A stretch of DNA of 47,147 nucleotides from a phage: the sequence record PZ787336.1. One strand, given 5' to 3'. The notes below the pieces were generated by a model, which saw nothing but the letters and a program-made list of their open reading frames with translations, had not been told where the DNA came from and did not search any database. Numbering within the stretch: position 1 is the stretch's first letter; every line of letters starts with the position of its first letter. The position numbers were made by a program, and so were the translations under genes. Of this stretch, positions 3,677 through 47,147 are shown in pieces.

Positions 3677-3693
3677 CCTGAATTTGACTGATG

Positions 3694-3707
3694 TTGATTA
3701 TATCATC
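3694..3707 (-). promoter_or_regulatory. extended -10 promoter (TGATATAAT on minus strand) upstream of the chaperone/tape-measure genes
   Basis: plus-strand ttgattatatcatc = minus TGATATAAT, about 20 nt upstream of the ATG at 3676. Confidence 0.45.
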
Positions 3708-3716
3708 TCAGTGGTG

Positions 3717-3745
3717 TTGACACCTGCGAGGTGGTGATGTAGATT
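3717..3745 (+). promoter_or_regulatory. sigma70-like promoter TTGACA-N17-TAGATT driving the plus-strand Imm island
   Basis: TTGACA at 3717-3722, 17-bp spacer, TAGATT at 3740-3745, 35 nt upstream of the ATG at 3781; member of a repeated promoter family. Confidence 0.5.
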
Positions 3746-3780
3746 CAAATCATCGAAACGATATATGAATGAGGTGAGTT

Positions 3781-3975
3781 ATGGACGTTGTTATTTTGTT
3801 ACTTTTCGCTGGATTGGTTATATTTGCTTATCTTCTCCCGTCATTTGTGGCATTGCAAAGAAAGCACACAAATACGACCGCAATCTGTGTATTGAATATT
3901 CTTGTCGGATGGAGCTTTATTGGATGGGTTGCGGCACTTGTTTGGGCGTTGGTTAACAGTGGCGACAAAAAATGA
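3781..3975 (+). CDS. superinfection immunity protein (Imm family), small membrane protein
   Basis: 64 aa, two predicted transmembrane helices, conserved GWSFIGWVAALVWAL motif typical of the Imm_superinfect family. Confidence 0.75.
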   Translation: MDVVILLLFAGLVIFAYLLPSFVALQRKHTNTTAICVLNILVGWSFIGWVAALVWALVNSGDKK

Positions 3976-4115
3976 ACGAACAAACAAAAGCTGACCTGAT
4001 TTTCTATACTGATTTGTATGTCGATGCTGGTTATGACTACGAAGAAGCTGAACGCATGGCGAAAGACTTGCTTCGTGTGATTGGTGTGATTTTTGATGAG
4101 GATAAGGTGATATGA
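3972..4115 (+). CDS. hypothetical small acidic protein (47 aa)
   Basis: ATG overlaps the stop of the Imm gene (ATGA), ends overlapping the next start; below the ORF-track length cutoff. Confidence 0.35.
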   Translation: MNEQTKADLIFYTDLYVDAGYDYEEAERMAKDLLRVIGVIFDEDKVI

Positions 4116-4471
4116 ACAATTATGAAGAGATTAGTGATTTTGAGATTAATAAGGCGGTGGCACTAATTGTTGGTGCGACATTTAATGATGATGGCGAGCC
4201 GGTTAGATTTGTCGAATGTGATACAGGTGCTTACGCCGACTTTAATGAGATTGAATTTGACCCATGCAATAAACCAGAGGATGCGTGGCCAATTATCACT
4301 GAAAACAAAATCAGCATAATGTTTGATAGCACCGATACGAGATATGAAGGTGAATATCACGAATGGTGTGACGCGATTTCACATTGCCAAAAGTTCGGAA
4401 TTCAGCATCAGTCTAACCCACTCCGCGCCGCCATGATCGTCTTCCTGAAAATGAATGAGGATAAGTTATGA
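4112..4471 (+). CDS. hypothetical phage protein
   Basis: 119 aa ORF translationally coupled to neighbours in the plus-strand island. Confidence 0.55.
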   Translation: MNNYEEISDFEINKAVALIVGATFNDDGEPVRFVECDTGAYADFNEIEFDPCNKPEDAWPIITENKISIMFDSTDTRYEGEYHEWCDAISHCQKFGIQHQSNPLRAAMIVFLKMNEDKL

Positions 4472-4662
4472 GCAAGTGGATTAAGTGTAGTGAGCGAATG
4501 CCAAACGAAGAAGATGTTTTGGTTTATTGCTCAGACACAAAAGAGCAGATGGTTGGATTCCATAAGGGGAAAGGACTATTTCAATTTTTCTATATGAATG
4601 GAGTTGAGGGAGTCTGTGAGCCAACACACTGGATGCCACTACCAGAGCCACCACAAGAATAA
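4468..4662 (+). CDS. DUF551-like phage protein
   Basis: 64 aa with C-terminal HWMPLPEPP motif characteristic of DUF551. Confidence 0.55.
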   Translation: MSKWIKCSERMPNEEDVLVYCSDTKEQMVGFHKGKGLFQFFYMNGVEGVCEPTHWMPLPEPPQE

Positions 4663-5409: not shown

Positions 5410-5442
5410 TTCGATCTCCGAATTGTGTTAGCTGCTAACGTG

Positions 5443-5457
5443 GTGATTATATCACAG
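5443..5457 (-). promoter_or_regulatory. extended -10 promoter (TGTGATATAAT on minus strand) for the major tail protein gene
   Basis: plus gtgattatatcac; same 13-mer recurs at 23028-23040. Confidence 0.5.
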
Positions 5458-5460
5458 GTG

Positions 5461-5489
5461 TTGACAGTGATTATTTTGTGGTGTAGATT
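5461..5489 (+). promoter_or_regulatory. sigma70-like promoter TTGACA-N17-TAGATT, divergent from the major tail protein promoter
   Basis: TTGACA 5461-5466, TAGATT 5484-5489; no ORF downstream before the terminator at 6009-6034. Confidence 0.5.
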
Positions 5490-6034
5490 GTATTTCAGAT
5501 AGTTTTCGTGAGCGACTTTGCGGACTTTTTAGAAACTGACCACAAAGATAAATGCAAACGATGATGTTGTTCTGATGGCGGCGTAATAGCCTGTAAGTCA
5601 GCAAGGTCTTCCGATTCCTTGTAAACAAATTCGGCGCACTGGCCCGGTGTGATTAATAATGGGCACGCAACAGGTAAGAGCATTGAGAGGTTCGATTCCT
5701 CTTGGTTATTGAGGCCGCGAGGCGCGCTGGAATTGATCAACCAGTGTGAAATCCAATAGGCATAGGTTCAGTGCTCTTTCCGTTGTGGTGAATGCGCAGG
5801 TCGATGCGCAAGTAAGCAACCGATGGCGAGGTAGTGTATAAGGCGGTCGCTGCAAGCCTTGAACTGAAAATCCCGTCACGCCGGAGTTCGACACCGGCCA
5901 CCATAACACTTAACATTCAGCGTTATCGCAATCATATGTAGGGGTATGTATGGGTTACGGGGCTGGATGTTAAGAAAGCATGCTGGCAATGCTTAAACCA
6001 GCAATAAGGCCGCTTCGTGCGGCTTTATTTATTT
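5490..6034 (+). other. promoter-to-terminator plus-strand locus without ORF; candidate non-coding RNA
   Basis: no plus-strand ORF longer than 17 codons; bounded by promoter and hairpin terminator; contains a tRNA-like T-arm GAGAGGTTCGATTCCTCT. Confidence 0.25.
6009..6034. terminator. rho-independent terminator
   Basis: GCCGCttcgtGCGGC followed by tttatttattt. Confidence 0.6.
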
Positions 6035-8388: not shown

Positions 8389-8435
8389 GTTTAAATCTCC
8401 TGTTGTTTGATTAGCATGATTTTAGCATATTCCTG

Positions 8436-8464
8436 TTGACGTAGATTGATGTGGCGTTTATAGT
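8436..8464 (+). promoter_or_regulatory. sigma70-like promoter TTGACG-N17-TATAGT for the ParB/methyltransferase island
   Basis: TTGACG 8436-8441 followed directly by tagattga; TATAGT 8459-8464. Confidence 0.5.
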
Positions 8465-8505
8465 TAGTGACGTAGAAACAACAATAAATGTTAGAGGTGA
8501 TGAAG

Positions 8506-9129
8506 ATGAGTAGTAACGCAAAACATTATGATTATTACATGGTTGAAGGTGATGATGTTAAGAAACTAATCGACGCATACGATGACATCAAGAATCGCCG
8601 CAATGAAATTCTCGGTGACGCAATGAAAAAGGTTGGAGCTGTCGCATTTACCACAACGCGCAGTTGGGGCGCTGTTGGCGGTGGCCTGCTTGAGAGTTTT
8701 GCGTGGAGCAATAAATTTGAATTTCCATGCCCTGTAACAATAAAACGTGAAGATTTTTGGGAAGGTCAGCGCGTGGTTATTGTTCGTGGGAAAGGAAACA
8801 CAAAGGATGGTCGTGAATACAACAAAAAGCTGGACGCAGTGATGCGCGAGGCAAACGAGAAATTAAAGTTATTGCCAGAATGGAAGGACTACATTGTTAA
8901 CCATTATGGCATCGCACGTACCGGCATTGGTGAGCAATCTGGTCGCGGATTTGGTTTTGCAATGCTTTCTACTTATGGAGGCAAACACCCGAAAAAGGAT
9001 GATTGTTTGATTTTTGCTGTGCCAAATACAAAAGATGAAGGTCACGGACGGGTAACGATACCTGATAACTTTAAGCAGATAACCTACGGTCAGTTTTACG
9101 ATATTGCTAATTCTGGTGATGAGGATTAA
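8506..9129 (+). CDS. hypothetical protein (207 aa), first gene of an accessory island
   Basis: ATG at 8506 preceded by AGAGGTGA RBS; ORF track gives 8488; no recognised domain. Confidence 0.6.
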   Translation: MSSNAKHYDYYMVEGDDVKKLIDAYDDIKNRRNEILGDAMKKVGAVAFTTTRSWGAVGGGLLESFAWSNKFEFPCPVTIKREDFWEGQRVVIVRGKGNTKDGREYNKKLDAVMREANEKLKLLPEWKDYIVNHYGIARTGIGEQSGRGFGFAMLSTYGGKHPKKDDCLIFAVPNTKDEGHGRVTIPDNFKQITYGQFYDIANSGDED

Positions 9130-9131
9130 TC

Positions 9132-9323
9132 ATGGCAAACATGTCCTACTGTCGATTTCGTAATACAGAGCAAGACTTCAATGATTGTGTTGATGCAATT
9201 GGCAACATTGAGTCTATTGGTGACTTAAGTAATGCAGAACGCAAGTCTGCTGAGCGCCTGTACCATCTTGCTAATGAGTACGTCGCATATTACGAGCAAT
9301 TATTGGAAGAAAGTGGTGAATGA
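9132..9323 (+). CDS. hypothetical small acidic protein
   Basis: 63 aa ORF tightly packed between neighbours. Confidence 0.5.
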   Translation: MANMSYCRFRNTEQDFNDCVDAIGNIESIGDLSNAERKSAERLYHLANEYVAYYEQLLEESGE

Positions 9324-9324
9324 T

Positions 9325-10134
9325 ATGAAAACACTTAGCAAAATCTATTCAGACAAAGAAACGCGCAACGGAATCGCTGTTAACAAAACCTATCTCGTGC
9401 CAGTGGAGCAAATCTATCTGGAGCCGGGATACAACATCCGCGAAGCAGACGAGCAGCATGTGGAGTATTTCGCGCAGTGCTGGGAATCAGGTCAGCCATT
9501 ACCAGCATTAACAGTTATTCCTGATGAGAAGGGAATCCGCATTCTTGATGGTCAGCATCGCTATCTAGGCGCATTGCGTGCCATTGAGCGTGGCGCACCA
9601 ATTGTTCGTATTGAGTGCAAGGATTTCACAGGAGGCGAAGCAGATAAAATCGCCTTCATGGTGTCGTCCAGTCAGGGTAAGCAGCTTGACCCGTTTGAAC
9701 GCGCAAAGGCTTACACGCGACTGAAGGGTTTTGGCTGGACCAACGAGGAAATCGCCAAGAAGGTAGGGCGCTCAGTTTCTGACGTGCAGATGCACCTGTC
9801 ACTGGGTGATGTGCCAGCCGAAGTAAAAGCGCGAATCAGTGCAGGGCAAATCAGCTATGCAAATGCCGTAGCAGTAACTCGCGAACATGGCGATGATGCG
9901 GTTAAAGTTATCGACGAGGCAGTCGAAGAAGCGAAGGCGCAAGGCAAGGATAAGGTAACGGCGAAGGTGCTTAAGTCGAAAAAGATTAAGCCAGTAGACC
10001 GACTGATTGAGTTACTGAAGCCAGCTGACCACGTTATTCTTCCTGCTGGTCATGTAGTGGCAGAGAATGAGGAGTTTATCCAGATTCCTGTTGCTGATAT
10101 TCACGAGGTGATGGCAATTCTGGAGAAGATGTGA
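9325..10134 (+). CDS. ParB-like nuclease domain protein
   Basis: N-terminal ParB/Srx-like region with the GIRILDGQHRYLGA-type motif; start at ATG 9325 directly after the upstream stop. Confidence 0.7.
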   Translation: MKTLSKIYSDKETRNGIAVNKTYLVPVEQIYLEPGYNIREADEQHVEYFAQCWESGQPLPALTVIPDEKGIRILDGQHRYLGALRAIERGAPIVRIECKDFTGGEADKIAFMVSSSQGKQLDPFERAKAYTRLKGFGWTNEEIAKKVGRSVSDVQMHLSLGDVPAEVKARISAGQISYANAVAVTREHGDDAVKVIDEAVEEAKAQGKDKVTAKVLKSKKIKPVDRLIELLKPADHVILPAGHVVAENEEFIQIPVADIHEVMAILEKM

Positions 10135-10931
10135 TGATGGTCCACTATTACAATGAGTGGGACAAGGGCGCAGCGGCATGGCTGCGTGAATTAATTAACA
10201 ATAAACTAATTCCTTACGGATATGTCGATGAACGATCAATCACCGAAGTCACCCCTTCAGACCTGGAAGGATTTACACAGTGTCACTTCTTTGCCGGAAT
10301 CGGAGGGTGGCCCCTTGCACTCCAGCTGGCAGGAATACCAGAAAGCACTCGACTCTGGACAGGATCACCACCTTGCCAGCCGTTTAGCGTTGCCGGTAAG
10401 TCTCTCGGATTTGACGACGATCGACACCTTGCCCCAGCATTTCTCAGGCTCATCAGAGAGTGCAAGCCTGAATTGCTGTTTGGAGAGCAGGTTGCAGCAG
10501 CAATTGGGAAGCACTGGCTCGATTTTGTATTCCTTAACCTGGAAGACAAAGGCTACGCCTGCGGGGCGTCAGTATTGCCAGCTTGCAGCGTCGGCTCTCC
10601 ACAGGAAAGGAAAAGAATCATCTTTGGCGCGAGGATGGGCGACACCAACGGCGCGAGGATGGAAGGATTACGGGAATCTCAGCAAGTCATTTTACAGAAA
10701 GGACGGGAAATTCAGGAACGATACTCTTTATCGCCAGATGTGGCTTCATGTTTATGGGATTCATGGAAACCCAACCATGGAGCAGATAAGGAAACTAGAG
10801 TCATACCAGGCGGATTTTGCGAGGCAACTCATGGGGTATCCGCAAGAGTGGGACGATTGCGCGGTTATGGTAATGCCATAGTTCCACAAGTCGCAGCAGA
10901 ATTCATTAAAGCATTCATGAGGTCCGTTTAA
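10131..10931 (+). CDS. DNA cytosine-5 methyltransferase (orphan); reading frame in the middle part uncertain
   Basis: motifs FAGIGG (I), PPCQPFS (IV), SPQERKRIIF (VIII), GNAIVP (X) in this frame; RQLMGYPQEW (motif IX-like) lies in the overlapping frame 10222..10881. Confidence 0.75.
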   Translation: MMMVHYYNEWDKGAAAWLRELINNKLIPYGYVDERSITEVTPSDLEGFTQCHFFAGIGGWPLALQLAGIPESTRLWTGSPPCQPFSVAGKSLGFDDDRHLAPAFLRLIRECKPELLFGEQVAAAIGKHWLDFVFLNLEDKGYACGASVLPACSVGSPQERKRIIFGARMGDTNGARMEGLRESQQVILQKGREIQERYSLSPDVASCLWDSWKPNHGADKETRVIPGGFCEATHGVSARVGRLRGYGNAIVPQVAAEFIKAFMRSV

Positions 10932-11104
10932 TGACACCAGAACAATTCATTGAAAAACAACTTCGCACCAAGCTGCCTGACATTGACCAGATGGCAATTG
11001 ATGCGGCGATTCAGTATTACAAGCGCAATCAGAGCGCAAAGAAGGGTGGCATTTTTGAAGAATGCCTGAAGGTTGCAAAACAACACATGATTAAGGTGAA
11101 GTGA
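10931..11104 (+). CDS. hypothetical small protein (57 aa)
   Basis: ATG overlaps the methyltransferase stop (TAATGA); coupled to the next ORF. Confidence 0.3.
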   Translation: MTPEQFIEKQLRTKLPDIDQMAIDAAIQYYKRNQSAKKGGIFEECLKVAKQHMIKVK

Positions 11105-11244
11105 TGAAACTAAAAATTAGCAAATTATTACTTGAATCAGCATTAATATTTCAGGGTCGCAATGATGTGCGATATTACCTGAATGGAATCTGCTTCATGC
11201 CTGATGGTCGCATTGCATCAACTGACGGTCATCGCGCGTGGTGA
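11104..11244 (+). CDS. 46-aa ORF resembling a fragment of the DnaN beta sliding clamp
   Basis: NDVRYYLNGICFMPDGRIASTDGHR matches the conserved DnaN stretch QDVRYYLNGMLF...ATDGHRLA; stops after 46 codons, terminator follows. Confidence 0.4.
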   Translation: MKLKISKLLLESALIFQGRNDVRYYLNGICFMPDGRIASTDGHRAW

Positions 11245-14511: not shown

Positions 14512-14637
14512 TTAACTCTCCACGGTTAGTTTGTGGTCGAATTATAACACAGGGAGATATAGCACCATGAGGCGGTAGCCAGTGCAAACAATGGCGAATT
14601 GGTGAGTGCGTATAGCGTGAGAAAGTAAGTGATAGGG
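14512..14637 (-). CDS. hypothetical small hydrophobic protein (41 aa)
   Basis: AGGAGG RBS 5 nt upstream of the ATG; stop 2 nt before the protease-scaffold ATG. Confidence 0.3.
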
Positions 14638-15558: not shown

Positions 15559-15817
15559 TTAGTACGTCCTCAGCAAGTTTGCGGAACATGATTTGCACTC
15601 TTGCCACTTTGCGCCACTCAGCTTCGGTGAGAATCACATCCTCCTGCTGCGGAATTCCCGACATTTCGCATGGCGGTAATGGCTCATACTCTTGCTTCTT
15701 GCGTTTGGCTTTTCCCATGCTGACCTCTTGCGCTGCGAAGAAGTAAATTAAACAGGTTGCTGACATTAACCTCCTGCTCATGCCATGAGTAACGCCACAG
15801 CTTCTTGTGGTGGTCAT
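15542..15817 (-). CDS. hypothetical protein (start uncertain; may begin at internal Met)
   Basis: ORF begins inside a 19-bp tandem duplication. Confidence 0.4.
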   Translation of the reverse strand: MTTTRSCGVTHGMSRRLMSATCLIYFFAAQEVSMGKAKRKKQEYEPLPPCEMSGIPQQEDVILTEAEWRKVARVQIMFRKLAEDVLNEMGY

Positions 15818-15842
15818 AGCTTCTTGTGGTGGTCATAGCTTC
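15799..15842. repeat. perfect 19-bp tandem direct repeat (agcttcttgtggtggtcat x2 plus partial third copy)
   Basis: two identical adjacent copies at 15799-15817 and 15818-15836 straddling a gene boundary. Confidence 0.6.
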
Positions 15843-16245
15843 GCGTCACATCACCGTTATGAAACATAATGCGGATGCGGCTTTTCACGATGCGATAATC
15901 AATGCCAGTGGTGGTACTGATTTCTTTCACTTCCGCGCCAGCGTTATCAAGCAAATGGCACTTAATAGCATCATCAATACCGGCTGCATCATCAGAGATG
16001 AAATATTTATACTGCCACTTGCCGCCGCGAATCACTGACTTCTCGCGACGAATGAATCCAAGAGCAAGCATCTCATGTAAGCGATGCGTTGTGGTGCTTG
16101 AATGCTTACCTCCGCAATGCTTCTCAATGTATGCGCGCGTTGCTCCGGGGTGATTCATAATCACGCGCATGATTTGTGATTTATAGTCCATAATCACGCT
16201 CCTCTGCTGCCTGATTGAAGTCGTCGGAAGTGTAGAGGTGTCCAC
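15814..16245 (-). CDS. hypothetical protein, possibly truncated by the tandem duplication
   Basis: 143 aa; stop codon lies in the second repeat copy. Confidence 0.45.
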   Translation of the reverse strand: MDTSTLPTTSIRQQRSVIMDYKSQIMRVIMNHPGATRAYIEKHCGGKHSSTTTHRLHEMLALGFIRREKSVIRGGKWQYKYFISDDAAGIDDAIKCHLLDNAGAEVKEISTTTGIDYRIVKSRIRIMFHNGDVTRSYDHHKKL

Positions 16246-16426
16246 CTCTTGTGTTCCATTTCTTCATTGCCGTGGATGCGCAGCAATACGAGTCAGTGCG
16301 GCAAAAACAATCTCCGCACTCAACGTGCAACCATTCGCCGTCATCAATAACACTTACGTCATCACAACCACAAAACGGGCATTCAAGTAATTTCTCATCG
16401 TTCATTAGTAGTGTCATATTGCTCAC
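16181..16426 (-). CDS. Lar-like restriction alleviation protein (zinc-ribbon)
   Basis: 81 aa with CPFCG...C..C pattern and C-terminal KKWNTR, as in Lar-family proteins. Confidence 0.5.
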   Translation of the reverse strand: MSNMTLLMNDEKLLECPFCGCDDVSVIDDGEWLHVECGDCFCRTDSYCCASTAMKKWNTRGGHLYTSDDFNQAAEERDYGL

Positions 16427-16933
16427 CTTTTGTATTCAAAAATTTCCCGTGAACCATCTTTATGAGCCTGTTCCTCTCCTCTTTTGCTTGTGTTATTGAC
16501 GAGAATCTACCTCCATAATAATGCTTGCCATTGGCTGTAATTTGAACCCTCCACCTTTCTCGCGAAGAGTCCCAAACAACATCCTTAACTCCGCTTGTAT
16601 TATTGTTTTTCACGCCTACATTCATAACATTTTGACCTCTTGTGACCAATCTTAGGTTGCTGATGCGATTATCTTTCTTGTTCCCATTTATGTAATCAAT
16701 CTCATATCCGTTTGGTATATCTCCATTGCAAACAATCCACGCCATTCTGTGTGCGTAAAACCTCCCGATGGGGAGTTGAATTCTCCAATACCCATGCGAT
16801 GTAATACCTCCAGCCACCTTCCCTTTCTTTGATTTTCTTGAGAAATATCAATCCATAGAAAGTTTCCTGTATTTTCATCATACTGGAGGAACTTTAAAAT
16901 GCTTTCCTGACTAATGTTGCTCATTTCAACCAT
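16395..16933 (-). CDS. HNH-AP2 homing endonuclease, apparent frameshift
   Basis: N-terminal part (LQYDENTGNFLW...) in ORF 16688..16933, HNH (GYEIDYINGNKKDNRISNLR) and AP2 parts in ORF 16395..16817; frames differ by one base at a short A-run near 16819. Confidence 0.65.
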
Positions 16934-17373: not shown

Positions 17374-17384
17374 TTCCACATCAC

Positions 17385-17448
17385 CTTTTCCGTTGTGGTA
17401 CAATCTACGTCAACAAGTATTGACTAAATGATGTAGAAACGTCAAGAT
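17385..17448. promoter_or_regulatory. divergent promoter region (plus TTGACT at 17420-17425; minus-strand TTGACG-TAGATT element at 17401-17413)
   Basis: contains caatctacgtcaa and gatgtagaaacgtcaa, both members of the repeated motif family. Confidence 0.4.
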
Positions 17449-17472
17449 GTTTTTCGAGAAGGAGTAGTAAAT

Positions 17473-17679: not shown

Positions 17680-18186
17680 GGCATAGGAGAGATGAGCCGA
17701 GTAGGGAGTTTATATTGAGTTACCTTTACTACAATCCACTAACTGGGGAATTTAAATGGCTAAAGACAAGGAATAGGATTGCAGAAAAGGGAGTGTGGCT
17801 GGCTACTTAAAGCCAGATGGATATGTGCAAATAATTCTTTGCGGTAGGGCTTTTCTTGCTCACAGATTGGCATGGATATGCATTCATGGCGCGCCAGCAA
17901 GTGAAATGATTGACCACATAATGGCATTCGCAATGACAACAGGGCGTGCAATTTAAGGGAGGCCAGCAAATTTGAGAATAGCCACAACAAAGCAATGAAC
18001 AAAAACAACACTAGCGGTATCAAGGGGGTTAACTGGAGTTCATCGCACAACAAGTGGCATGCAAGAGTTGGAGTAAATGGCAAAAGATTCACAGTTGGTT
18101 ACTTTTCCGACATAAGAGAAGCAGAAGCAAAAATAAAAGAATTCAGGAGAATGCATCACAATGAGTTCACAAATCACGGGCGATAA
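17676..18186 (+). CDS. HNH-AP2 homing endonuclease, two apparent frameshifts
   Basis: N-terminal YYNPLTGEFKW in frame 1, GYLKPDGYVQI...AHRLAW...IDHI in a second frame, AP2 domain (GIKGVNWSSSHNKWHARVGVNGKRFTVGYF) in ORF 17995..18186; shifts at aaaaggg (17785-17791) and ataatgg (17918-17924). Confidence 0.65.
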
Positions 18187-20579: not shown

Positions 20580-20605
20580 TCTGCCTCCAGTTCAAATAAT
20601 GATTA

Positions 20606-20616
20606 ATTCTATCACA
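20606..20616 (-). promoter_or_regulatory. extended -10-like promoter (TGTGATAGAAT on minus) for the lysis operon
   Basis: about 20 nt upstream of the ATG at 20579. Confidence 0.4.
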
Positions 20617-20623
20617 ATGACTA

Positions 20624-20654
20624 TTGACGTAGATTGAGTGGTGGTGCATAGTAT
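20624..20654 (+). promoter_or_regulatory. sigma70-like promoter TTGACG...TAGTAT
   Basis: TTGACG 20624-20629 followed by tagattga; TAGTAT 20649-20654; 30 nt upstream of the ATG at 20685. Confidence 0.5.
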
Positions 20655-20684
20655 CTACATCAAATGATGAGTGAGGGAGAAATC

Positions 20685-20828
20685 ATGGCAATAGTCAAAT
20701 TCAAAGAAAGCGGTTGTCGCAGAATGTTCAGCCTTGAGCAAATCAAAATCCGTCCGTGCGGCAAGGTGGTTGCGCCATTTAGTCTGGTGCAGATGCGCGA
20801 AGTTGAGATTGTTGAATATATTAAGTGA
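20685..20828 (+). CDS. hypothetical small protein (47 aa)
   Basis: GAGGGAG RBS; below the track length cutoff. Confidence 0.35.
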   Translation: MAIVKFKESGCRRMFSLEQIKIRPCGKVVAPFSLVQMREVEIVEYIK

Positions 20829-20836
20829 GGTTGGTG

Positions 20837-21088
20837 ATGAAAGAATTTAAAGGAATCCCTGGGTCGTGGCATTACGATGATGAACTTGGTGGGGTCTATA
20901 GTAATGGCGACCAATTCGTGTGCGATGTTACCAATAAGGATGATGCCAACGTCATCGCTGCAGCACCTGAGCTTCTGGAGGCTTTGCAGAAAATGCTCAG
21001 TAAAGCGTATAAGCAAAACTGGAATGACGCATACCCAGAAGTGATTAAATCAGCACAGGATGCAATCAACAAAGCGCTAGGAGAATGA
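20837..21088 (+). CDS. hypothetical protein, paralog of 38762..39043
   Basis: shared EFKG..G(A/S)W, IAAAPELL.ALQ and AINKALG motifs with the second copy. Confidence 0.5.
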   Translation: MKEFKGIPGSWHYDDELGGVYSNGDQFVCDVTNKDDANVIAAAPELLEALQKMLSKAYKQNWNDAYPEVIKSAQDAINKALGE

Positions 21089-21089
21089 A

Positions 21090-21740
21090 ATGAAACTTAT
21101 CGAACTGTTAGTTCAAGAATTACCTAAGCGTGGTGGGTGGAACGAAAACTGGGTGGTGGTTACGCAAGATGCCGACGGCTATTTCTGTTGCTGGCGTTAT
21201 GATGACCCAAGATACAATGGATTTGGCTGGAGACACAGAACAGGAAAGGGTTTAGTTGGATACTGGCGAGTTGATAATGATGTTGTTTTATCATGCGACA
21301 GTACGAAGGCAATGGTAACTAGAAGCCAATACGAATCCGCACTCGCAGCATCACAAAAGCCAACATGGAGCGGCGAAGGCCTACCTCCAGTTGGTGCAAA
21401 AGTAGAATTCTTCATCAATCCAAAGTTAGGATACCGCAATGCCTGGATTCCTGATGCCGGCACTGAAATGGAAGTTGTGGCGCACAAGACAACAACGGAC
21501 GGAAACGATGTTGCTGTTTGCTATTGGGATGAAGGTGGTGCTGGTCGGTCATGCTGCTTCGTACCGGAAAGCCTAAAACCACTACGCACAGAAGCAGAAA
21601 GGAAACATGAGGCCGTACTTGAATCTATCTGTGCGGTATTAGAAATGGTGGCGCAAGATTACAAGCGCGAGGATGGGGCCAAGCTAATTTATGAAGCCAT
21701 CGCAGCAGGCAAAATTCCCGGCGTGAAACTTGATGATTAA
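21090..21740 (+). CDS. hypothetical protein (216 aa)
   Basis: ORF followed by a terminator; no recognised domain. Confidence 0.5.
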   Translation: MKLIELLVQELPKRGGWNENWVVVTQDADGYFCCWRYDDPRYNGFGWRHRTGKGLVGYWRVDNDVVLSCDSTKAMVTRSQYESALAASQKPTWSGEGLPPVGAKVEFFINPKLGYRNAWIPDAGTEMEVVAHKTTTDGNDVAVCYWDEGGAGRSCCFVPESLKPLRTEAERKHEAVLESICAVLEMVAQDYKREDGAKLIYEAIAAGKIPGVKLDD

Positions 21741-23027: not shown

Positions 23028-23042
23028 GTGATTATATCACTT
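23028..23042 (-). promoter_or_regulatory. extended -10 promoter (GTGATATAAT on minus strand)
   Basis: identical 13-mer gtgattatatcac to the one at 5443-5455; upstream of the endonuclease-like gene. Confidence 0.45.
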
Positions 23043-25374: not shown

Positions 25375-25420
25375 ATGTCACCAATAAAAAATCCCTCACG
25401 ATGGAGGGATTATAGCATGG

Positions 25421-27072: not shown

Positions 27073-27279
27073 TCACCATCTCAAAAAATCATTCTTGCAG
27101 CAGATACCCTTATATCCGCGCTTCTCTTGCAGGTTAACGAAAACATCATCCAGAACGCGCAGCAGAAAATCCTCGTCGATATCATACCGACGGCAAATAA
27201 CCTCATCAGGCACACCAGCTCGCGCCAGTGAATAAACCTGTTCTTTTTCCTCCTGTGTGAATCCTGCATAGCTGCGCAT
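27073..27279 (-). CDS. hypothetical protein
   Basis: 68 aa ORF, first gene after promoter at 27310-27338. Confidence 0.4.
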   Translation of the reverse strand: MRSYAGFTQEEKEQVYSLARAGVPDEVICRRYDIDEDFLLRVLDDVFVNLQEKRGYKGICCKNDFLRW

Positions 27280-27309
27280 AGTGATATCTCCGATAAGCCT
27301 GATGTAGAT

Positions 27310-27338
27310 ATACTATGCGCTCGGTGTAGATTTGTCAA
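27310..27338 (-). promoter_or_regulatory. sigma70-like promoter TTGACA-N17-TAGTAT on minus strand
   Basis: plus tgtcaa 27333-27338 and atacta 27310-27315; immediately downstream of the terminase large subunit stop. Confidence 0.5.
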
Positions 27339-27354
27339 GTGTGGTGATGCAGAT

Positions 27355-28779
27355 TTATCGCCTGCGCCGGATTAGCATTCCGCTACCGCGTTGAACGATA
27401 TGGTCATTGAGCGCGTAACGAACCGCATCCCAGAAGTGGTTGAATGCATCAACAATATCGGTCAGCACATTCCCTGTCAGCTTATCAACTTTGTAACTGT
27501 ACATTGCAGCTTCATTCTGTATTTCCTTGCATCGTTCGTGAATGACAATGCTGTCACAGCCGCGTAACCATGTCACGCCATCCTCAACGCTTCCCGGCCA
27601 TTTTGTGCATGGATGAATGTCAAACCCGGAACGCTTGATGTGACTGATGGTTTCTGGTCGAGCGCAGTCTGCATACCATCGTGCGCGCTTAGCCATCGGG
27701 AATGATTGCTCCATCGCCGCTGGCGTATCGGTAATCTCAAGGCCAACCTTGCCATACTCGCGATTAATATAAATGTTGCGCCGTCCGCCTGGTAACTCTT
27801 TGATGTACACTTCAACCATTGCGGTAGGATCGGTGGAAAACCCGAAGTCCATTCCGAAATATGGACCGTGCCATTCAGGTTTGACTTCGAAGTTATCAAT
27901 GCGCCATTTGCCGCCGAAGACCTGCTCATCACTGCGTTTGTTAAATTTGCCTTCCCATATCCACATGTAGCGGTCGAAATCGACGCGCTTCATTTGCTCC
28001 ATAGCGGATGGCAACGGCGTATCCCAGAACCACGGGTTGTCTGAATAGTTACATTCGATAACCAGAATTTCATCGTTTTCGAATATGCCATCAACCATTT
28101 GTGAGTGGTAGGGAGCAATCCAGTTTTTCCATGTCGGGTCTGTATCTTTGTTGGGGTTAAATGAGCACCACAACTCGGAATTAGCAGTACGGATGGTAGG
28201 CACAAGAATATCCCAGCTTGTCTGGCTGACGTTCTCTGCTTCCTCTACCCAGCCAACGGTAATGCCAGCAAAACCCTTGACTGTAGTCTGGTTGCGATAC
28301 AGCCCCTTGAAGCGAAATTTAGCCTTAGTCTTTTTGTGAGTTATCTCGTTGTTGATAACGCGAAACTCTGCCGATTCTCCCTTGCGGGCTATTTCGTCAA
28401 CAAGCTCCTGATAGCTTGAATCCTCAATGGATTGCTGAATCTCGCGAAAGCAGGCGAAGCGGTCAGGACGAAACCTTGCTCGCTCGGTAAGGATAGTGAT
28501 AATCGTTCTTGTCTTACCTGACCCACGACCACCGTAGACAAACTTGAAACGCTTCGGATAAAGCAGTCGCTCCAGTTTTGCCGGAATAAGGTGGTCGGCA
28601 TGAGTGGTTGCATTGGTTACGTCATCAACGCCAGTAGCGGTCATCCTTAACCGCTTAATGACGTTCTTCTGCATGTCGCAGATTCCAAAGATGGCGGACT
28701 CGGCTACTTCGGTCATTGCATCATCAATCTGCGCTTCCAGCTTTTCGATTGCCAGTGCGGATAGGCGTTTACGAGCCAT
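27355..28779 (-). CDS. terminase large subunit
   Basis: Walker A VYGGRGSGKT, conserved size; ATG at 28779; the track ORF starts at a TTG at 28818. Confidence 0.85.
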   Translation of the reverse strand: MARKRLSALAIEKLEAQIDDAMTEVAESAIFGICDMQKNVIKRLRMTATGVDDVTNATTHADHLIPAKLERLLYPKRFKFVYGGRGSGKTRTIITILTERARFRPDRFACFREIQQSIEDSSYQELVDEIARKGESAEFRVINNEITHKKTKAKFRFKGLYRNQTTVKGFAGITVGWVEEAENVSQTSWDILVPTIRTANSELWCSFNPNKDTDPTWKNWIAPYHSQMVDGIFENDEILVIECNYSDNPWFWDTPLPSAMEQMKRVDFDRYMWIWEGKFNKRSDEQVFGGKWRIDNFEVKPEWHGPYFGMDFGFSTDPTAMVEVYIKELPGGRRNIYINREYGKVGLEITDTPAAMEQSFPMAKRARWYADCARPETISHIKRSGFDIHPCTKWPGSVEDGVTWLRGCDSIVIHERCKEIQNEAAMYSYKVDKLTGNVLTDIVDAFNHFWDAVRYALNDHIVQRGSGMLIRRRR

Positions 28780-29363: not shown

Positions 29364-29421
29364 GTCTTTTTGTGTTCTTTGAGTAACTCACATACGCTAA
29401 TTTTAACACATAGACGTAGAC

Positions 29422-31575: not shown

Positions 31576-31758
31576 TCAGAACACGACAATCAGCTCATCC
31601 ATTACTCTTCGCTTTCCTTCACCATTAAACACGCGCACAACGCGATTTACGCGGATAGATTCCATTGCATTGCGTGCCTGCTTGCTCATGAAGTTCTGCG
31701 CGCCAACGTGACCGAGTTCCTGCTCCAGTTTCTCGCGACGATAGATAGTCTTTGCCAT
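31576..31758 (-). CDS. hypothetical protein
   Basis: 60 aa ORF. Confidence 0.4.
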   Translation of the reverse strand: MAKTIYRREKLEQELGHVGAQNFMSKQARNAMESIRVNRVVRVFNGEGKRRVMDELIVVF

Positions 31759-32085: not shown

Positions 32086-32115
32086 CTCTTCACTCTCGTT
32101 TGTTCCGATGAGTTC

Positions 32116-32144
32116 AATCTACATCAATGATGATTCTACGTCAA
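32116..32144 (-). promoter_or_regulatory. sigma70-like promoter TTGACG-N17-TAGATT on minus strand
   Basis: plus cgtcaa 32139-32144 and aatcta 32116-32121; adjacent to the iteron region. Confidence 0.5.
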
Positions 32145-32159
32145 CATAAATGCGTTAAA

Positions 32160-32475
32160 AACGTGCTCGTGGGGTAAATTTTTGCCCGTGGGGCAGGTCG
32201 TGGGGAAGGTGGTATGCCCCACGGGAAACCCTTGCGCCATGCGGCTTTTAACATGTTTGGGTAAGTGGGGCAGATTTCATACCCATCCCCTTATAAATAT
32301 ATTCAAATAATCCATTTGTTAATATTATGTTAATTACTATCTATAATATGAATAATAATATTACCCATTACCCCAAATAATAATAATTTTATTATATTAC
32401 ATATACTTAGAGTAAAAGTTCGTGGGGAAGGTGATGTTCCCCACGGCTGCCCCACGTTACCCACGCGAGTCGTAT
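32160..32475. other. putative origin of replication: CGTGGGG/CCCCACG iterons flanking an AT-rich stretch
   Basis: at least 8 copies of the 7-mer in both orientations on either side of a roughly 130-bp AT-rich segment, immediately upstream of the replication protein gene. Confidence 0.55.
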
Positions 32476-36056: not shown

Positions 36057-36066
36057 AAATTTACCC

Positions 36067-36094
36067 TTGATTGTTGGTGTAGATTGAGTATAAG
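36067..36094 (+). promoter_or_regulatory. sigma70-like promoter TTGATT-N16-TATAAG
   Basis: contains gtagattga; the divergent minus promoter for the primase uses the gacgtagaaacatcaa element at 36101-36116. Confidence 0.45.
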
Positions 36095-36131
36095 CTAACT
36101 GACGTAGAAACATCAATAAAAGGATATAGCA

Positions 36132-38317: not shown

Positions 38318-38729
38318 TAGCGGCATATGGGTATTTGATAGCGGTTATCGTGGTGAGTGTCCTAAAGAGGAGACTGACCAGATGGGTTACGGAACATGGA
38401 TGCAACACCGCTTCCCTGATGTTCTGTGGTTTCATGTACCCAACGAAACTGGCACATCAAGCAGGGTGCAGTTTGTGCTGAAGCGCCAGAAGATGGGGGT
38501 TAAGGCTGGTATAGGCGACAATGTGATAATGACTCCGGGGGTAAATCACAGTTGTGGGATGATTGAAGCAAAGCGTCGCGATAAAAGCAAAAGCAGGGTG
38601 AGCAAGGAGCAATCGTCCGTGTTAACTGAGATGTGCAGGCTTGGTCATTATGCCGCCATCGCTTACGGTCTTGATGAACTAAAAAAAGCCACACTTTTCT
38701 ATTTTGGCTTGCCTTTCGATGTAGATTGA
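38304..38729 (+). CDS. VRR-NUC domain nuclease
   Basis: 141 aa with GIGDNVIMTPGV...GMIEAKRRD...SKEQ pattern consistent with the VRR-NUC fold; the 3' end runs into the promoter motif. Confidence 0.65.
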   Translation: MKQLDSGIWVFDSGYRGECPKEETDQMGYGTWMQHRFPDVLWFHVPNETGTSSRVQFVLKRQKMGVKAGIGDNVIMTPGVNHSCGMIEAKRRDKSKSRVSKEQSSVLTEMCRLGHYAAIAYGLDELKKATLFYFGLPFDVD

Positions 38730-38737
38730 TGTAGATT
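38709..38737 (+). promoter_or_regulatory. sigma70-like promoter with tandem GTAGATTGA / GTAGATTCA elements
   Basis: TTGCCT 38709-38714, N17, TAGATT 38732-38737; 24 nt upstream of the ATG at 38762. Confidence 0.45.
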
Positions 38738-38761
38738 CAACTGACAATAACAAGTGAGGTA

Positions 38762-39043
38762 ATGAAGATGAGTAACGAATTCAAAGGTACTAAAGGTGCG
38801 TGGAGAGTAGTGGTTGGTGATGACAATTCGCCTGATATTGTAGCTGATGGTGGAGTTGATATTGCCAGCACGCCAACATATAACGGGGATAAAGATGAGC
38901 AGTGGCACAATGCATACCTCATAGCCGCCGCCCCAGAACTCTTGAGTGCTTTGCAAGCATGTCTAGGATGGGTAAATAATGGTATTTCTCGTGACGCACA
39001 TAATCAAGCGATTACAGCAATCAACAAAGCGTTAGGCAAATAA
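38762..39043 (+). CDS. hypothetical protein, paralog of 20837..21088
   Basis: shared motifs EFKGTKGAW, IAAAPELLSALQ, AINKALG. Confidence 0.5.
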   Translation: MKMSNEFKGTKGAWRVVVGDDNSPDIVADGGVDIASTPTYNGDKDEQWHNAYLIAAAPELLSALQACLGWVNNGISRDAHNQAITAINKALGK

Positions 39044-43888: not shown

Positions 43889-43927
43889 TATAATAAATGC
43901 TCCTTTGTGAATTTGATGTATATTGTA

Positions 43928-47147
<3,220 letters not shown>

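What the first reader, a model, noticed from the sequence alone, without database searches (positions are those of the whole stretch)
20606..20654. Repeated bidirectional promoter module built around GTAGATTGA and GACGTAGAAAC elements
Near-identical promoter architectures recur at about 3717, 5461, 8436, 17420, 20624, 36067 and 38709 on the plus strand and at 27310, 32116 and 17401 on the minus strand: TTGAC(A/G) -35, a 16-19 bp spacer and TAGATT or TAGTAT -10, with the 9-mer GTAGATTGA or its complement in or next to almost every copy. Several copies are back-to-back with a minus-strand promoter. At four sites (3694-3707, 5443-5457, 20606-20616, 23028-23042) the partner is an extended -10 of the form TG-x-GATATAAT or GATAGAAT, whose 13-mer gtgattatatcac is identical at 5443 and 23028. 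The conserved 9-mer could be the operator of a phage regulator or a specificity element.
Basis: seen in the sequence. Interest (0 to 1): 0.6.

Follow-up and report, generated by a model that had tools for sequence, protein, structure and literature searches.

The report
Shared motif in phage early promoters
A lytic Salmonella/E. coli phage places one conserved 10-14 bp sequence inside nearly all of its strong early promoters, probably as the landing site for a still unidentified phage regulator that helps switch from early to late genes.

Summary
The repeat is real. GRYGTAGAWW (consensus TTGAYGTAGATTGA) occurs 16 times where about 1 is expected. All copies lie in nine gene-start regions of this E1-like siphophage. 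Each region holds a strong sigma-70-type promoter for a non-structural operon. At four junctions it sits back-to-back with an extended -10 promoter (TGnTAnAAT, no -35) for a virion or lysis operon.

The motif takes several registers: fused to the -35, forming the -10, just after the -10, or inverted. It always falls within about -36 to +10. Motif bases outside the hexamers are as conserved as the hexamers across Salmonella, E. coli and Klebsiella relatives. Phages sharing only the structural genes lack the motif.

Best reading (about 0.45): an asymmetric operator for a phage-encoded regulator that shuts early promoters. This is inferred, not shown. It is truncated here and deleted in phage Akira, which keeps the motif. 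A ParB-family HTH protein (9325-10134) fits better but is unproven.

Side lead: the promoter at 5461 drives an unannotated tmRNA-like RNA. It has an SsrA-like tag (ANDDVVLMAA) and covarying pseudoknots. It is found in 818 phage records, spanning at least five further families or subfamilies.

The parts
20606..20614 (-). Extended -10 promoter TGATAGAAT (no -35) for the lysis operon that starts at 20579. This is the late partner of the module in the finding.
   Evidence: It is conserved in 13 homologous sequences (R20624). It lies 27 nt upstream of the start codon.
20624..20654 (+). Early promoter of the finding. TTGACG (20624-29), then a 19-bp spacer, then TAGTAT (20649-54). The alternative is a 17-bp spacer and CATAGT (20647-52). 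It drives 20685-21740.
20626..20635 (+). Motif copy GACGTAGATT, fused to the -35 (TTGAC|GTAGATTGA).
   Evidence: Near-invariant in the homologues: all but phage E1, which reads GACGCAGATT.
20652..20661 (-). Inverted motif copy GATGTAGATA, which overlaps and follows the -10 of the + promoter (TAGTAT|CTACATCA).
3697..3705 (-). Extended -10 promoter TGATATAAT for the tail operon that starts at 3667.
   Evidence: Near-invariant in the homologues: one substitution, in phage E1 (R3700).
3717..3745 (+). Early promoter TTGACA-17-TAGATT. The motif GATGTAGATT (3736-45) supplies the -10. It drives 3781-4662.
5446..5454 (-). Extended -10 promoter TGATATAAT for the major tail gene that starts at 5409.
   Evidence: TGATATAAT is kept in the Klebsiella clade while its flanks differ (R5460).
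5461..5489 (+). Early promoter TTGACA-17-TAGATT. The motif GGTGTAGATT (5480-89) supplies the -10. No ORF lies downstream.
5496..5684 (+). tmRNA-like non-coding RNA transcribed from the 5461 promoter. The tag ORF is 5554-5583 with stops to 5589 (ANDDVVLMAA**). A pseudoknot and a further helix follow it.
8419..8427 (-). Extended -10 promoter TGCTAAAAT for the head-tail operon that starts at 8388.
   Evidence: TGnTAAAAT is conserved in 25 homologues from two clades (R8436).
8436..8464 (+). Early promoter TTGACG-17-TATAGT. The motif GACGTAGATT (8438-47) is fused to the -35. It drives 8506-11244, which includes the ParB-like gene.
   Evidence: The first 8 spacer bases, TAGATTGA, are near-invariant (only phage E1 differs) while the next 9 vary.
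8469..8478 (+). Motif copy GACGTAGAAA, which starts 4 nt after the -10 in the transcription start region.
   Evidence: Near-invariant in 25 homologues, with one substitution in L032, together with a largely conserved downstream 5'UTR.
17402..17411 (-). Motif copy GACGTAGATT, 3 nt after the -10 of the minus promoter TTGACG(17445-40)-17-CAATAC(17422-17). That promoter drives 17373-14957.
17430..17439 (+). Motif copy GATGTAGAAA inside the shared spacer of two fully overlapping divergent promoters. The + promoter is TTGACT(17420-25)-17-CAAGAT(17443-48).
27310..27338 (-). Promoter TTGACA-17-TAGTAT, which drives 27279-25421 and then the portal gene.
   Evidence: R27310.
27301..27332 (+). Two motif copies (27301-10 GATGTAGATA, 27323-32 GGTGTAGATT) inverted relative to the promoter. 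One lies right after its -10 and one right after its -35. A third, degenerate copy GATGCAGATT is at 27346-55.
   Evidence: The same layout occurs in STGO-35-1, LPSTLL and E1.
32116..32144 (-). Early promoter TTGACG-17-TAGATT made of two motif copies 17 bp apart (32133-42 at the -35, 32116-25 at the -10). It drives 32085-29544.
   Evidence: R32116.
36067..36116 (.). Overlapping divergent promoters. The + promoter is TTGATT-16-TATAAG (helicase operon). The - promoter is TTGATG-18-TATACT (primase). Both share motif copies 36076-85 and 36101-10.
38709..38737 (+). Promoter TTGCCT-17-TAGATT with two tandem motif copies 10 bp apart (38718-27, 38728-37). It drives 38762-41552.
   Evidence: R38715.
14541..14549 (-). 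Extended -10 TGTTATAAT, 32 nt upstream of the capsid operon start at 14509. Same late class, no early partner.
23031..23039 (-). Extended -10 TGATATAAT within GTGATTATATCAC. Late class, no early partner.
25409..25417 (-). Extended -10 TGCTATAAT, 35 nt upstream of the portal gene start at 25374.
29400..29408 (-). Extended -10 TGTTAAAAT, 37 nt upstream of 29363, the ORF preceding the large terminase.
43922..43930 (-). Extended -10 TGATACAAT, 34 nt upstream of the tailspike gene start at 43888.
9325..10134 (+). ParB/Spo0J-family HTH protein. It is the best remaining candidate for the motif-binding protein, but this is unproven. It is encoded in the operon behind the 8436 module.
15814..16191 (-). 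A 19-bp tandem duplication at 15799-15842 truncates it here.
   Evidence: It is deleted in Akira.

Best explanation
The window is a lytic E1-like siphophage that uses host RNA polymerase and has two promoter classes.

Class E promoters have a near-consensus -35 (TTGACR) and a TAnnnT -10. They head the non-structural operons: replication, recombination, host takeover, and one RNA gene. Class L promoters are extended -10 promoters (TGnTAnAAT) without a -35. They head the virion and lysis operons.

Every class E promoter carries one to three copies of an asymmetric 10-14 bp element, TTGAYGTAGATTGA, inside the polymerase footprint (-36 to +10).

I propose that this element is the operator of a phage-encoded DNA-binding protein made from one of these operons. 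When that protein accumulates, it occupies the -35, -10 and start regions of all class E promoters together and turns them down. Where a class E and a class L promoter are back-to-back and compete for the same 50-70 bp, this would also free the late promoter.

Shown here: the motif exists, is specific to promoters and to this clade, lies in variable registers, and is under selection beyond the hexamers. The two promoter classes are also shown as sequence classes. Inferred: promoter activity and timing, protein binding, repression, and the identity of the protein. The ParB-family HTH protein at 9325-10134 is the best candidate, at roughly 0.2.
For: 1. Specificity. There are 16 copies against about 1 expected, all at gene starts.

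2. Promoter context. The best sigma-70-like matches in the window coincide with the motif. Proximal copies end 22-36 nt from start codons.

3. Selection beyond RNA polymerase contacts. In orthologous alignments, motif-only columns average 0.934 identity with 75% invariant. Hexamer-only columns average 0.912 with 72.5% invariant. Other intergenic columns average 0.771 with 40% invariant. At 8436, across 25 distinct sequences from two clades, the 8 spacer bases after the -35 vary only in phage E1, while the next 9 spacer bases vary widely.

4. Variable register and orientation within -36 to +10. The motif is fused to the -35 at 8438, 17402, 20626 and 32133. It supplies the -10 at 3736, 5480, 32116 and 38728. 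It starts 3-5 nt after the -10 at 8469, 17402 and 36101. It is inverted after the -35 or -10 at 27301, 27323 and 20652, and at the primase promoter. That pattern suits occlusion and not a single polymerase contact.

5. Clade specificity. There are 11-18 copies in each of STGO-35-1, LPSTLL, E1, CF-SP1, Akira, ZX4 and VLCpiS13b. Yersinia phage P400, Cronobacter ENT47670 and Erwinia Eho59 have 0-2, although they share head-tail genes or a ParB homologue and infect related enterobacterial hosts. In IMG/VR fragments the density is 0.38 per kb in clade members and about chance elsewhere.

6. Late class. Thirteen of 14 TGnTAnAAT matches are on the late strand. Eight lie 27-37 nt upstream of late-gene starts.

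7. Candidate protein. The ParB-family protein is present in every motif-positive genome. Its HTH is 100% identical between the Salmonella and Klebsiella clades.
Against: There are no transcription start data, timing data or binding data for any member of this clade. None turned up in the literature searches.

The motif is not palindromic, whereas ParB, KorB and MarR proteins usually bind dyads.

The 12-mer is literally a -35 hexamer (TTGAYG) joined to a -10-like hexamer (TAGATT). Selection for several overlapping promoter registers could therefore mimic an operator.

All copies except those at 27301-27355 point the same way as a nearby operon, as promoter elements would.

A ParB homologue at 46% identity in Erwinia phage Eho59 comes without the motif.

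The sequences compared are related by descent. Some of the conservation is shared ancestry, and promoter cassettes may have spread by recombination.
Confidence: 0.45

Rival explanations
1. The motif is a promoter-intrinsic element. The 12-mer is a -35 hexamer fused to a -10-like hexamer. Copies create several overlapping or tandem sigma-70 promoters, or make extra contacts with polymerase. Conservation then reflects selection for strong, redundant early promoters. No dedicated binding protein is needed.
For: TTGAYG and TAGATT are each used as real hexamers. Two copies 17 bp apart form a complete promoter at 32116-32144 here, at STGO 2098/2115, and in ZX4 and VLCpiS13b. Nearly all copies are co-oriented with an operon. 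Copies that seem inverted here (27301-27355) face a gene in STGO-35-1 and LPSTLL. A -10-like TAGAWW just after the start could cause sigma-dependent pausing (own knowledge of lambda PR').
Against: The same hosts' sigma-70 serves phages that lack the motif (P400). G at -10 position 3 and the GRYG upstream are invariant although sigma-70 does not require them. Copies fused to the -35 have no -35 of their own at the right distance to act as a -10. Copies after the -10 have no usable -35 either: TAGAAA at 8473-78 would need a 22-bp spacer. Spacer bases next to the -35 are not a known polymerase contact, yet they are as conserved as the hexamers.
Confidence: 0.28
2. The motif is an activator box for middle-mode transcription, in the style of sigma appropriation. 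A phage factor bound at about -30 would keep these promoters active after -35 recognition is disabled. The extended -10 late promoters would need no such help.
For: Copies fused to the -35 are centred near -30, as T4 MotA boxes are (own knowledge). The late class is independent of the -35, the type that resists AsiA-like inhibition (own knowledge).
Against: Many copies sit at the -10 or at the start site, or are inverted, where an activator would clash with polymerase. The -35 hexamers are near consensus, unlike T4 middle promoters. No MotA-like or AsiA-like family was found among the roughly 40 early proteins scanned.
Confidence: 0.1
3. The motif is the core of a mobile promoter cassette. Similarity between sites and between phages would reflect recent copying and recombination at module boundaries, not sequence-specific function.
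For: Promoter blocks are more conserved than the genes they precede. They are flanked by non-homologous genes in different phages (R8436 and R20624; gene table). Inserted opposite-strand cassettes carry their own copy (STGO gp03, E1 VIP0039).
Against: Within one alignment, variable bases are interspersed between near-invariant motif and hexamer blocks. That pattern indicates purifying selection and not recent copying. The paralogous copies share only the 10-14 bp core.
Confidence: 0.1
4. The motif is the binding site of a host transcription factor or nucleoid protein that the phage exploits.
For: There is only loose resemblance to DnaA boxes, FNR half-sites, NarL heptamers and H-NS sites. These comparisons are from memory and none matches well.
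Against: The motif is absent from unrelated phages of enterobacterial hosts and is confined to one clade. No known enterobacterial factor has this consensus, to my knowledge.
Confidence: 0.04

Closest known systems
Phage P1 C1 repressor operators and mycobacteriophage L5 or L1 gp71 sites ('stoperators') (own knowledge; asymmetric multi-site repressors are also described in PMC1934351; the stoperator comparison is raised for T1-like phages in PMC11447400)
   Same: Both are asymmetric sites of 13-17 bp present in many copies across a phage genome. Both overlap promoters, and the L5 site contains the -35. Each set is thought to be read by one phage protein that co-regulates many operons.
   Different: Those phages are temperate, and their repressors maintain lysogeny. 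L5 sites also lie within operons in one orientation and stop elongation. Here the phage is lytic, sites occur only at promoters and in both orientations, and no cognate protein is identified.
RK2 KorB, a ParB-family global repressor, and its OB operators (PMC11790492)
   Same: In both cases a ParB-family HTH protein is encoded in an operon that carries the sites. About a dozen sites lie at promoters of many operons. KorB appears among the PDB relatives of the phage protein, and Pfam finds a KorB domain.
   Different: OB is a 13-bp palindrome, whereas this motif is asymmetric. The phage protein has DGQHRY where the ParB CTP-binding signature GERRxR lies, as I recall it. Binding is untested.
T4 middle promoters with MotA boxes (own knowledge)
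   Same: Both are phage-specific boxes centred near -30 on promoters that keep a sigma-70 -10. Both belong to a temporal programme run with host polymerase.
   Different: T4 middle promoters lack a -35, and their box has one fixed register. Here the -35 is near consensus and the box also lies at the -10, at the start site, or inverted.
The 21-nt direct repeats aaATAGCACnnnTTGnTAAAA of TLS, T1 and Rtp (PMC11447400)
   Same: Both are clade-specific repeats found between genes of a virulent siphophage that lacks its own polymerase. The function of each is unknown.
   Different: The sequence is different, and the TLS repeats lie about 76 nt upstream of start codons in the late direction. The TLS repeat was not searched for directly; TATAGCA, the related 7-mer that showed up in the intergenic k-mer list, is not enriched in this window. 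This phage is not a T1-like Drexlerviridae member.
Divergent early/late switches such as lambda PR/PRM with CI and phi29 A2b-A2c/A3 with p4 (own knowledge)
   Same: In both cases back-to-back promoters of different temporal classes share a short control region with repeated protein sites.
   Different: In those systems the site geometry relative to the activated promoter is fixed. Here the motif lies from about -31 to -50 relative to the late starts, so direct activation is unlikely and relief of competition is more plausible.

Membership tests
Sigma-70 -35/-10 promoter | A TTGACA-like hexamer, a 16-19 bp spacer, and a TAnnnT hexamer | tested here: met
   3717, 5461, 8436 and 27338(-) each score 10 of 12. 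20624, 32144(-) and 36116(-) each score 9 of 12. 17420, 36067 and 38709 are weaker.
Sigma-70 -35/-10 promoter | Placed upstream of, and oriented with, an operon | tested here: met
   All nine modules lie at operon heads in the gene maps of the window and its relatives.
Sigma-70 -35/-10 promoter | A transcription start 5-9 nt downstream of the -10 | not testable with these tools
   No RNA data were found for this clade in the literature searches.
Extended -10 promoter | TG one base upstream of a good -10, and no -35 needed | tested here: met
   TGnTAnAAT occurs at 3697, 5446, 8419, 14541, 20606, 23031, 25409, 29400 and 43922. All are on the late strand. The element is conserved while its flanks vary.
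Asymmetric multi-copy phage operator (P1 C1 or L5 gp71 type) | A non-palindromic site of 10-17 bp in many copies per genome | tested here: met
   There are 16 copies of an asymmetric core with consensus TTGAYGTAGATTGA.
Asymmetric multi-copy phage operator (P1 C1 or L5 gp71 type) | An identified cognate repressor that binds the site | not testable with these tools
   Only candidates are available. The ParB-like protein fits the distribution and the MarR-like protein does not.
Asymmetric multi-copy phage operator (P1 C1 or L5 gp71 type) | A temperate phage in which the sites serve immunity | tested here: not met
   No integrase or CI-type repressor is annotated in any clade genome examined.
KorB/ParB operator system | A ParB-family HTH protein is encoded | tested here: met
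   Pfam finds HTH_ParB at 3e-11 and KorB at 3e-6. The best PDB relative is Spo0J at 6e-13, and KorB scores 3e-3.
KorB/ParB operator system | A palindromic 13-16 bp site | tested here: not met
   The motif matches its own reverse complement at only 6 of 14 positions, by my own position-by-position comparison of the consensus. TGTTTCTACGT, the reverse complement of the 8469 and 36101 copies, differs from a parS half plus centre (TGTTTCACGT) by one inserted T. The parS consensus is recalled from memory.
KorB/ParB operator system | The CTP-binding GERRxR motif | tested here: not met
   The sequence at that position is ILDGQHRYLGA.
T4 MotA-box middle promoter | A box at -30 that replaces the -35, with MotA and AsiA encoded | tested here: not met
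   -35 hexamers are present. The box takes several registers. No such family appeared among the roughly 40 early proteins scanned.
Symmetric bidirectional promoter (overlapping -10 elements with starts about 18 bp apart; own knowledge) | -10 hexamers of the two strands overlap | tested here: not met
   The early and late -10 elements are 29-38 bp apart, for example 20606-11 against 20649-54. At 17417-48 and 36067-116 the promoters overlap fully but have separate -10 elements.
tmRNA (side lead, 5496-5684) | A resume codon GCA, a short tag ORF ending in a hydrophobic residue plus AA or VA, and stop codons | tested here: met
   A 10-codon ORF is conserved with synonymous changes in 14 diverse sequences.
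tmRNA (side lead, 5496-5684) | Pseudoknots downstream of the tag | tested here: met
   The model has 24 pairs and 95.8% of cells paired. Eleven pairs show compensatory changes, and no shuffle of 500 matched this. The model includes an H-type pseudoknot.
tmRNA (side lead, 5496-5684) | A tRNA-like domain: acceptor stem with G3-U70, T-arm and CCA end | tested here: not met
   No consistent acceptor and T-arm was found within 500 nt. ARAGORN at default settings is negative. Rfam tmRNA models score 7-31 bits against gathering scores of 47-84.

The most novel reading that the evidence does not exclude
The GTAGA boxes are half-parS-like operators of the phage's ParB/KorB-family protein. That protein would act as a global repressor of all early promoters and so drive the early-to-late switch of a lytic phage. 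That would be a use of the ParB fold in phage temporal control that I have not seen reported. Separately, the promoter at 5461 expresses a previously unannotated tmRNA-like RNA that lacks a tRNA-like domain. This RNA is shared by at least six phage groups, lambdoid prophages and plasmids.
Probability: 0.15. Interest if true: 0.7.

Novelty: new member of a known kind. Interest (0 to 1): 0.42.

Why it matters
If the reading is right, one short sequence marks the whole early regulon of a common group of Salmonella, E. coli and Klebsiella phages. Many of these are being developed for biocontrol. The paired extended -10 class marks the late regulon.

This gives a ready transcription map for about 200 poorly annotated genomes. 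It also gives a concrete target for finding the regulator, and portable early and late promoter parts.

It would also add a lytic-phage example to the small set of asymmetric, genome-wide phage operators.

The side lead matters more. A structured RNA with an SsrA-like tag is carried unannotated by 818 phage records and by 722 of 5426 complete E. coli genomes. This suggests that phages interfere with, or borrow, ribosome rescue.

Tried and rejected
T1-like identity. The first hits suggested a T1-like Drexlerviridae phage. The taxonomy lines of the nearest records place them in Caminolopintovirus, Macdonaldcampvirus, Segzyvirus, Akiravirus and Swiduovirus instead.

TLS/T1 repeat. The TLS/T1 21-nt repeat was not searched for directly. 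TATAGCA, the related 7-mer from the intergenic k-mer list, is not enriched here.

MarR-like protein as the binder. Rejected as the essential factor.

Small conserved early proteins. Pfam and PHROGs give no DNA-binding family. A single-sequence AlphaFold model of 31576-31758 is one long, low-confidence helix. The model of 27073-27279 is a three-helix bundle. Its best PDB matches are LuxR/GerE-type HTH domains, but only at E of 0.12 or worse. Its putative recognition helix is acidic. It is therefore not a convincing candidate.

ParB co-occurrence beyond the clade. Erwinia phage Eho59 has a 46% identical homologue but no motif. This is uninformative.

Scan of IMG/VR for TTGACGTAGATTGA. Hits outside the clade are at chance level.

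Host-factor consensus sequences (DnaA, FNR, NarL, H-NS, MetJ, Arc). These were compared from memory only, and none fits.

Literature. No paper holds the motif words other than as unrelated sequences (mostly primers), and I found no transcriptome of this clade. The E1 genome paper is not held in the library.

Fixed geometry between the motif and late promoters, which direct activation would need. The distances vary, so this was rejected.

A tRNA-like domain for the tmRNA-like RNA. Not found.
Full report
WHAT THE WINDOW IS. The 47,147-bp window is essentially a whole genome of a virulent siphophage of the Salmonella phage Vi II-E1 group. The nearest records are Escherichia phage vB_Eco_ZCEC08 and Salmonella phage vB_SenS_ST1UNAM, at about 95% identity. 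Related genera are Caminolopintovirus, Macdonaldcampvirus, Segzyvirus, Akiravirus and Swiduovirus. A Klebsiella branch includes ZX4 and VLCpiS13b. Virion and lysis genes lie on the minus strand. They are interrupted by plus-strand cassettes of small non-structural genes. The replication and recombination genes form divergent operons.

CHECK OF THE OBSERVATION. GTAGATTGA occurs 5 times against 0.35 expected. GACGTAGAAAC occurs 2 times exactly and 2 times with one mismatch, against 0.43 expected. The words belong to a broader core, GRYGTAGAWW, with 16 copies against 0.98 expected and a shuffle maximum of 5. The 16-column consensus is close to TTGAYGTAGATTGA. Fifteen copies lie in the 9.8% of the window that I call intergenic, and one overlaps the last codons of a gene. 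GTAGAT and GACGTAGA are the most intergenic-enriched 6-mer and 8-mer. The 13-mer GTGATTATATCAC is identical at 5443 and 23028. Several details need correction. Only about half of the ten sites fit the stated hexamer recipe. The exact 9-mer is in five of them.

ANATOMY. The copies fall in nine regions, each at the head of an operon. They are 3668-3780, 5410-5500, 8389-8505, 17374-17472, 20580-20684, 27280-27354, 32086-32160, 36057-36131 and 38690-38761. Most regions hold two copies. The spacings are 10, 17, 22-23, 25 and 31 bp for direct pairs, and 26 and 28 bp for inverted pairs.

The motif takes four kinds of position relative to the best sigma-70 hexamers:
- It is fused to the -35, as TTGAC|GTAGATTGA, or shifted 3-5 nt into the spacer.
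- It supplies the -10, as TGRYG|TAGATT.
- It starts 3-5 nt after the -10, across the expected start site, as TGACGTAGAAAC.
- It is inverted directly after the -35 or the -10. This occurs at 27301 and 27323, at 20652, and at the primase promoter on the minus strand at 36116.

All positions lie within about -36 to +10. The 12-mer is a -35-like hexamer joined to a -10-like hexamer. Two copies 17 bp apart make a complete promoter. This is seen at 32116-32144 here, at STGO-35-1 2098/2115, and in ZX4 and VLCpiS13b.

COMPARATIVE EVIDENCE. Seven related genomes carry 11-18 copies each, at the same junctions. Three phages that share only head-tail genes or a ParB homologue have 0-2 copies. They are Yersinia P400, Cronobacter ENT47670 and Erwinia Eho59. 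Among 120 IMG/VR fragments that contain one exact 14-mer, clade members carry 0.38 copies per kb. The unrelated fragments show nothing beyond the ascertained hit.

In alignments of the nine regions with 5-25 distinct homologues, I compared three column classes. Motif columns outside the hexamers average 0.934 identity to the window, and 75% are invariant. Hexamer-only columns average 0.912, with 72.5% invariant. Remaining intergenic columns average 0.771, with 40% invariant. The clearest case is 8436. There TTGACG plus the next eight bases vary only in phage E1, and TATAGT is invariant in every homologue. The nine spacer bases between them vary widely. These sequences are related by descent, so the numbers overstate independence. 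Even so, near-invariant blocks interleaved with variable bases indicate purifying selection on bases that sigma-70 is not known to read.

A SECOND PROMOTER CLASS. TGnTAnAAT occurs 14 times, and 13 are on the late strand. Eight lie 27-37 nt upstream of the start codons of tail, head, portal, terminase-region, tailspike and lysis operons. The element is kept in the Klebsiella branch while its flanks change. None has a recognisable -35 or a motif copy of its own. At 3700, 5450, 8420 and 20610 it sits back-to-back with a motif promoter, with the -10 elements 29-38 bp apart. The two polymerase footprints would therefore overlap. At 17417-17448 and 36067-36116, two motif promoters overlap fully and fire in opposite directions.

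WHO MIGHT BIND. Pfam and PHROGs identify two DNA-binding proteins among the non-structural genes. One is a MarR-like winged-helix protein (15814-16245). The other is a ParB-family HTH protein (true start near 9325).

The MarR-like gene is truncated in this window by a perfect 19-bp tandem duplication at 15799-15842. It is only 36-38% identical between clades that share an unchanged motif. It is absent from phage Akira, which keeps 17 copies at the usual places. This makes it a poor candidate.

The ParB-like protein is present in all motif-positive genomes at 80-99% identity. Its HTH is identical between the clades. It is a true homologue of Spo0J, ParB, Noc and KorB. Three points count against it. 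The motif is asymmetric. The CTP-binding motif is replaced by DGQHRY. A 46% identical homologue in a lambdoid Erwinia phage comes without the motif.

One curiosity may be chance. The reverse complement of the GTAGAAAC variants, TGTTTCTACGT, differs from a parS half plus centre by one inserted base. The parS consensus here is from memory.

The other conserved small proteins gave nothing convincing.

MECHANISM. I commit to an operator model at about 0.45. The motif promoters are recognised at once by host sigma-70 polymerase. One of their products binds the GTAGA boxes inside the polymerase footprint and turns the whole early set down. Where early and late promoters are back-to-back, this would also relieve competition for the -35-independent late promoter.

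The main rival, at about 0.28, is that the word is promoter-intrinsic. It would provide several overlapping registers, or extra polymerase contacts, or a sigma-dependent pause. Its orientation bias and its hexamer-like halves favour this reading. Its clade specificity, its invariant non-contact bases and its multiple registers argue against it.

Three further readings are less likely. They are an activator box of the MotA type, a recombining promoter cassette, and a host-factor site.

RELATION TO KNOWN SYSTEMS. The closest analogues in how it would work are the asymmetric, genome-wide operators of P1 C1 and of mycobacteriophage L5 or L1. Another is the RK2 KorB regulon. It is not a member of any of these. 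The phage is lytic, the site is not palindromic, and no cognate protein is shown. The membership table gives the details.

The motif words appear in the searchable literature only as unrelated sequences, mostly primers. The E1 record annotates other repeats but not this one. I therefore rate it a new member of a known kind, a clade-specific regulatory word in phage early promoters. It is of moderate interest.

SIDE LEAD THAT DESERVES ITS OWN FOLLOW-UP. The motif promoter at 5461 has no ORF downstream. The transcript would start near 5496. From 5498 to about 5665 it is conserved at 72-98% identity in 818 phage records. These come from E1-like siphophages, Schitoviridae, Ackermannviridae, Ounavirinae (Felix O1, Mooglevirus) and Chaseviridae. 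It is also found in 722 of 5426 complete E. coli genomes. There it lies in lambdoid prophages between the Q antiterminator and holin genes, and on many plasmids. It is almost always unannotated.

It contains an A-rich stretch followed by GCA AAC GAT ... GCG GCG TAA TAG, which reads ANDDVVLMAA**. The E. coli SsrA tag is ANDENYALAA**. The 10-codon frame is kept with synonymous and conservative changes in all 14 diverse sequences aligned. Examples are ANDNVFLAVA, ANDSEVLMAA, ANEEMYLAVA and ANDSEMRMVA.

Downstream lie a helix that closes over the stop codons, an H-type pseudoknot and a further covarying helix. By eye, the loop of that last helix pairs with bases downstream, which would make a second pseudoknot; those pairs were not counted. 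The model has 24 pairs with 95.8% of cells paired. Eleven pairs have compensatory changes. No shuffle of 500 reached these values, and slid controls pair at 32-52%.

Rfam tmRNA models hit repeatedly but below their gathering scores, at 7-31 bits. ARAGORN finds the RNA only at 70% stringency. I could not find a tRNA-like domain. The 2014 tmRNA census lists phage ssrA only in mycobacteriophages and Bacillus phage G (PMC4131195).

In relatives, tRNA genes follow or precede the element. In this window the tRNA-Met has been precisely deleted.

Noticed in passing
window 5496-5684 (+); homologues in L001, L003, L007, L130-L140: An unannotated, structured tmRNA-like RNA lies downstream of the 5461 motif promoter. 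It has a conserved 10-codon SsrA-like tag (ANDDVVLMAA** here), a helix over the stop codons, an H-type pseudoknot and a further covarying helix. No tRNA-like domain was found. It occurs in 818 phage records from at least six groups and in 722 of 5426 E. coli genomes (prophages and plasmids). It scores below Rfam and ARAGORN thresholds.
   Followed up: yes
window 5685-5705 and 5880-5903 (+): Two tRNA-like remnants lie downstream of the tmRNA-like RNA. One is a T-arm-like sequence, GAGAGGTTCGATTCCTCTTGG. The other is a hairpin ending in CCA, GCCGGAGTTCGACACCGGCCACCA. The tRNA-Met present at this spot in STGO-35-1 and Akira is precisely deleted here.
   Followed up: partly
window 32160-32460: Seven CGTGGGG/CCCCACG heptamers lie in both orientations, organised as two roughly 30-bp units 222 bp apart. 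They sit in the 456-bp gap upstream of the DUF3987 helicase operon. The E1 record annotates equivalent repeats. They are likely origin iterons or a regulatory array.
   Followed up: partly
window 15799-15842 (-): A perfect 19-bp tandem duplication (AGCTTCTTGTGGTGGTCAT, 2.3 copies) shifts the frame of the MarR-like gene and truncates it. The full-length protein in relatives appears, by eye, to contain two tandem winged-helix-like halves.
   Followed up: yes
window 8479-8505 (+): The 5'UTR after the 8469 motif copy (AACAATAAATGTTAGAGGTGATGA) is nearly invariant across 25 homologues from two clades, although the downstream gene differs. It may be a translational or RNA-level control element.
   Followed up: no
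window 17396-17404 (+): This is the only plus-strand extended -10 match (TGGTACAAT). It overlaps the minus-strand motif copy at 17402-11. It could be a third promoter in this very compact divergent region.
   Followed up: no
window 16395-16625 (-), 17795-17956 and 17995-18186 (+): Short ORFs match only parts of HNH endonuclease families. They look like fragments of decayed homing endonuclease genes.
   Followed up: no
PMC11447400 (TLS phage), not in this window: The 21-nt repeat reported for TLS, T1 and Rtp, aaATAGCACnnnTTGnTAAAA, closely fits the MarA/SoxS/Rob marbox consensus AYnGCACnnWnnRYYAAAY as I recall it from memory. The authors do not mention this.
   Followed up: no
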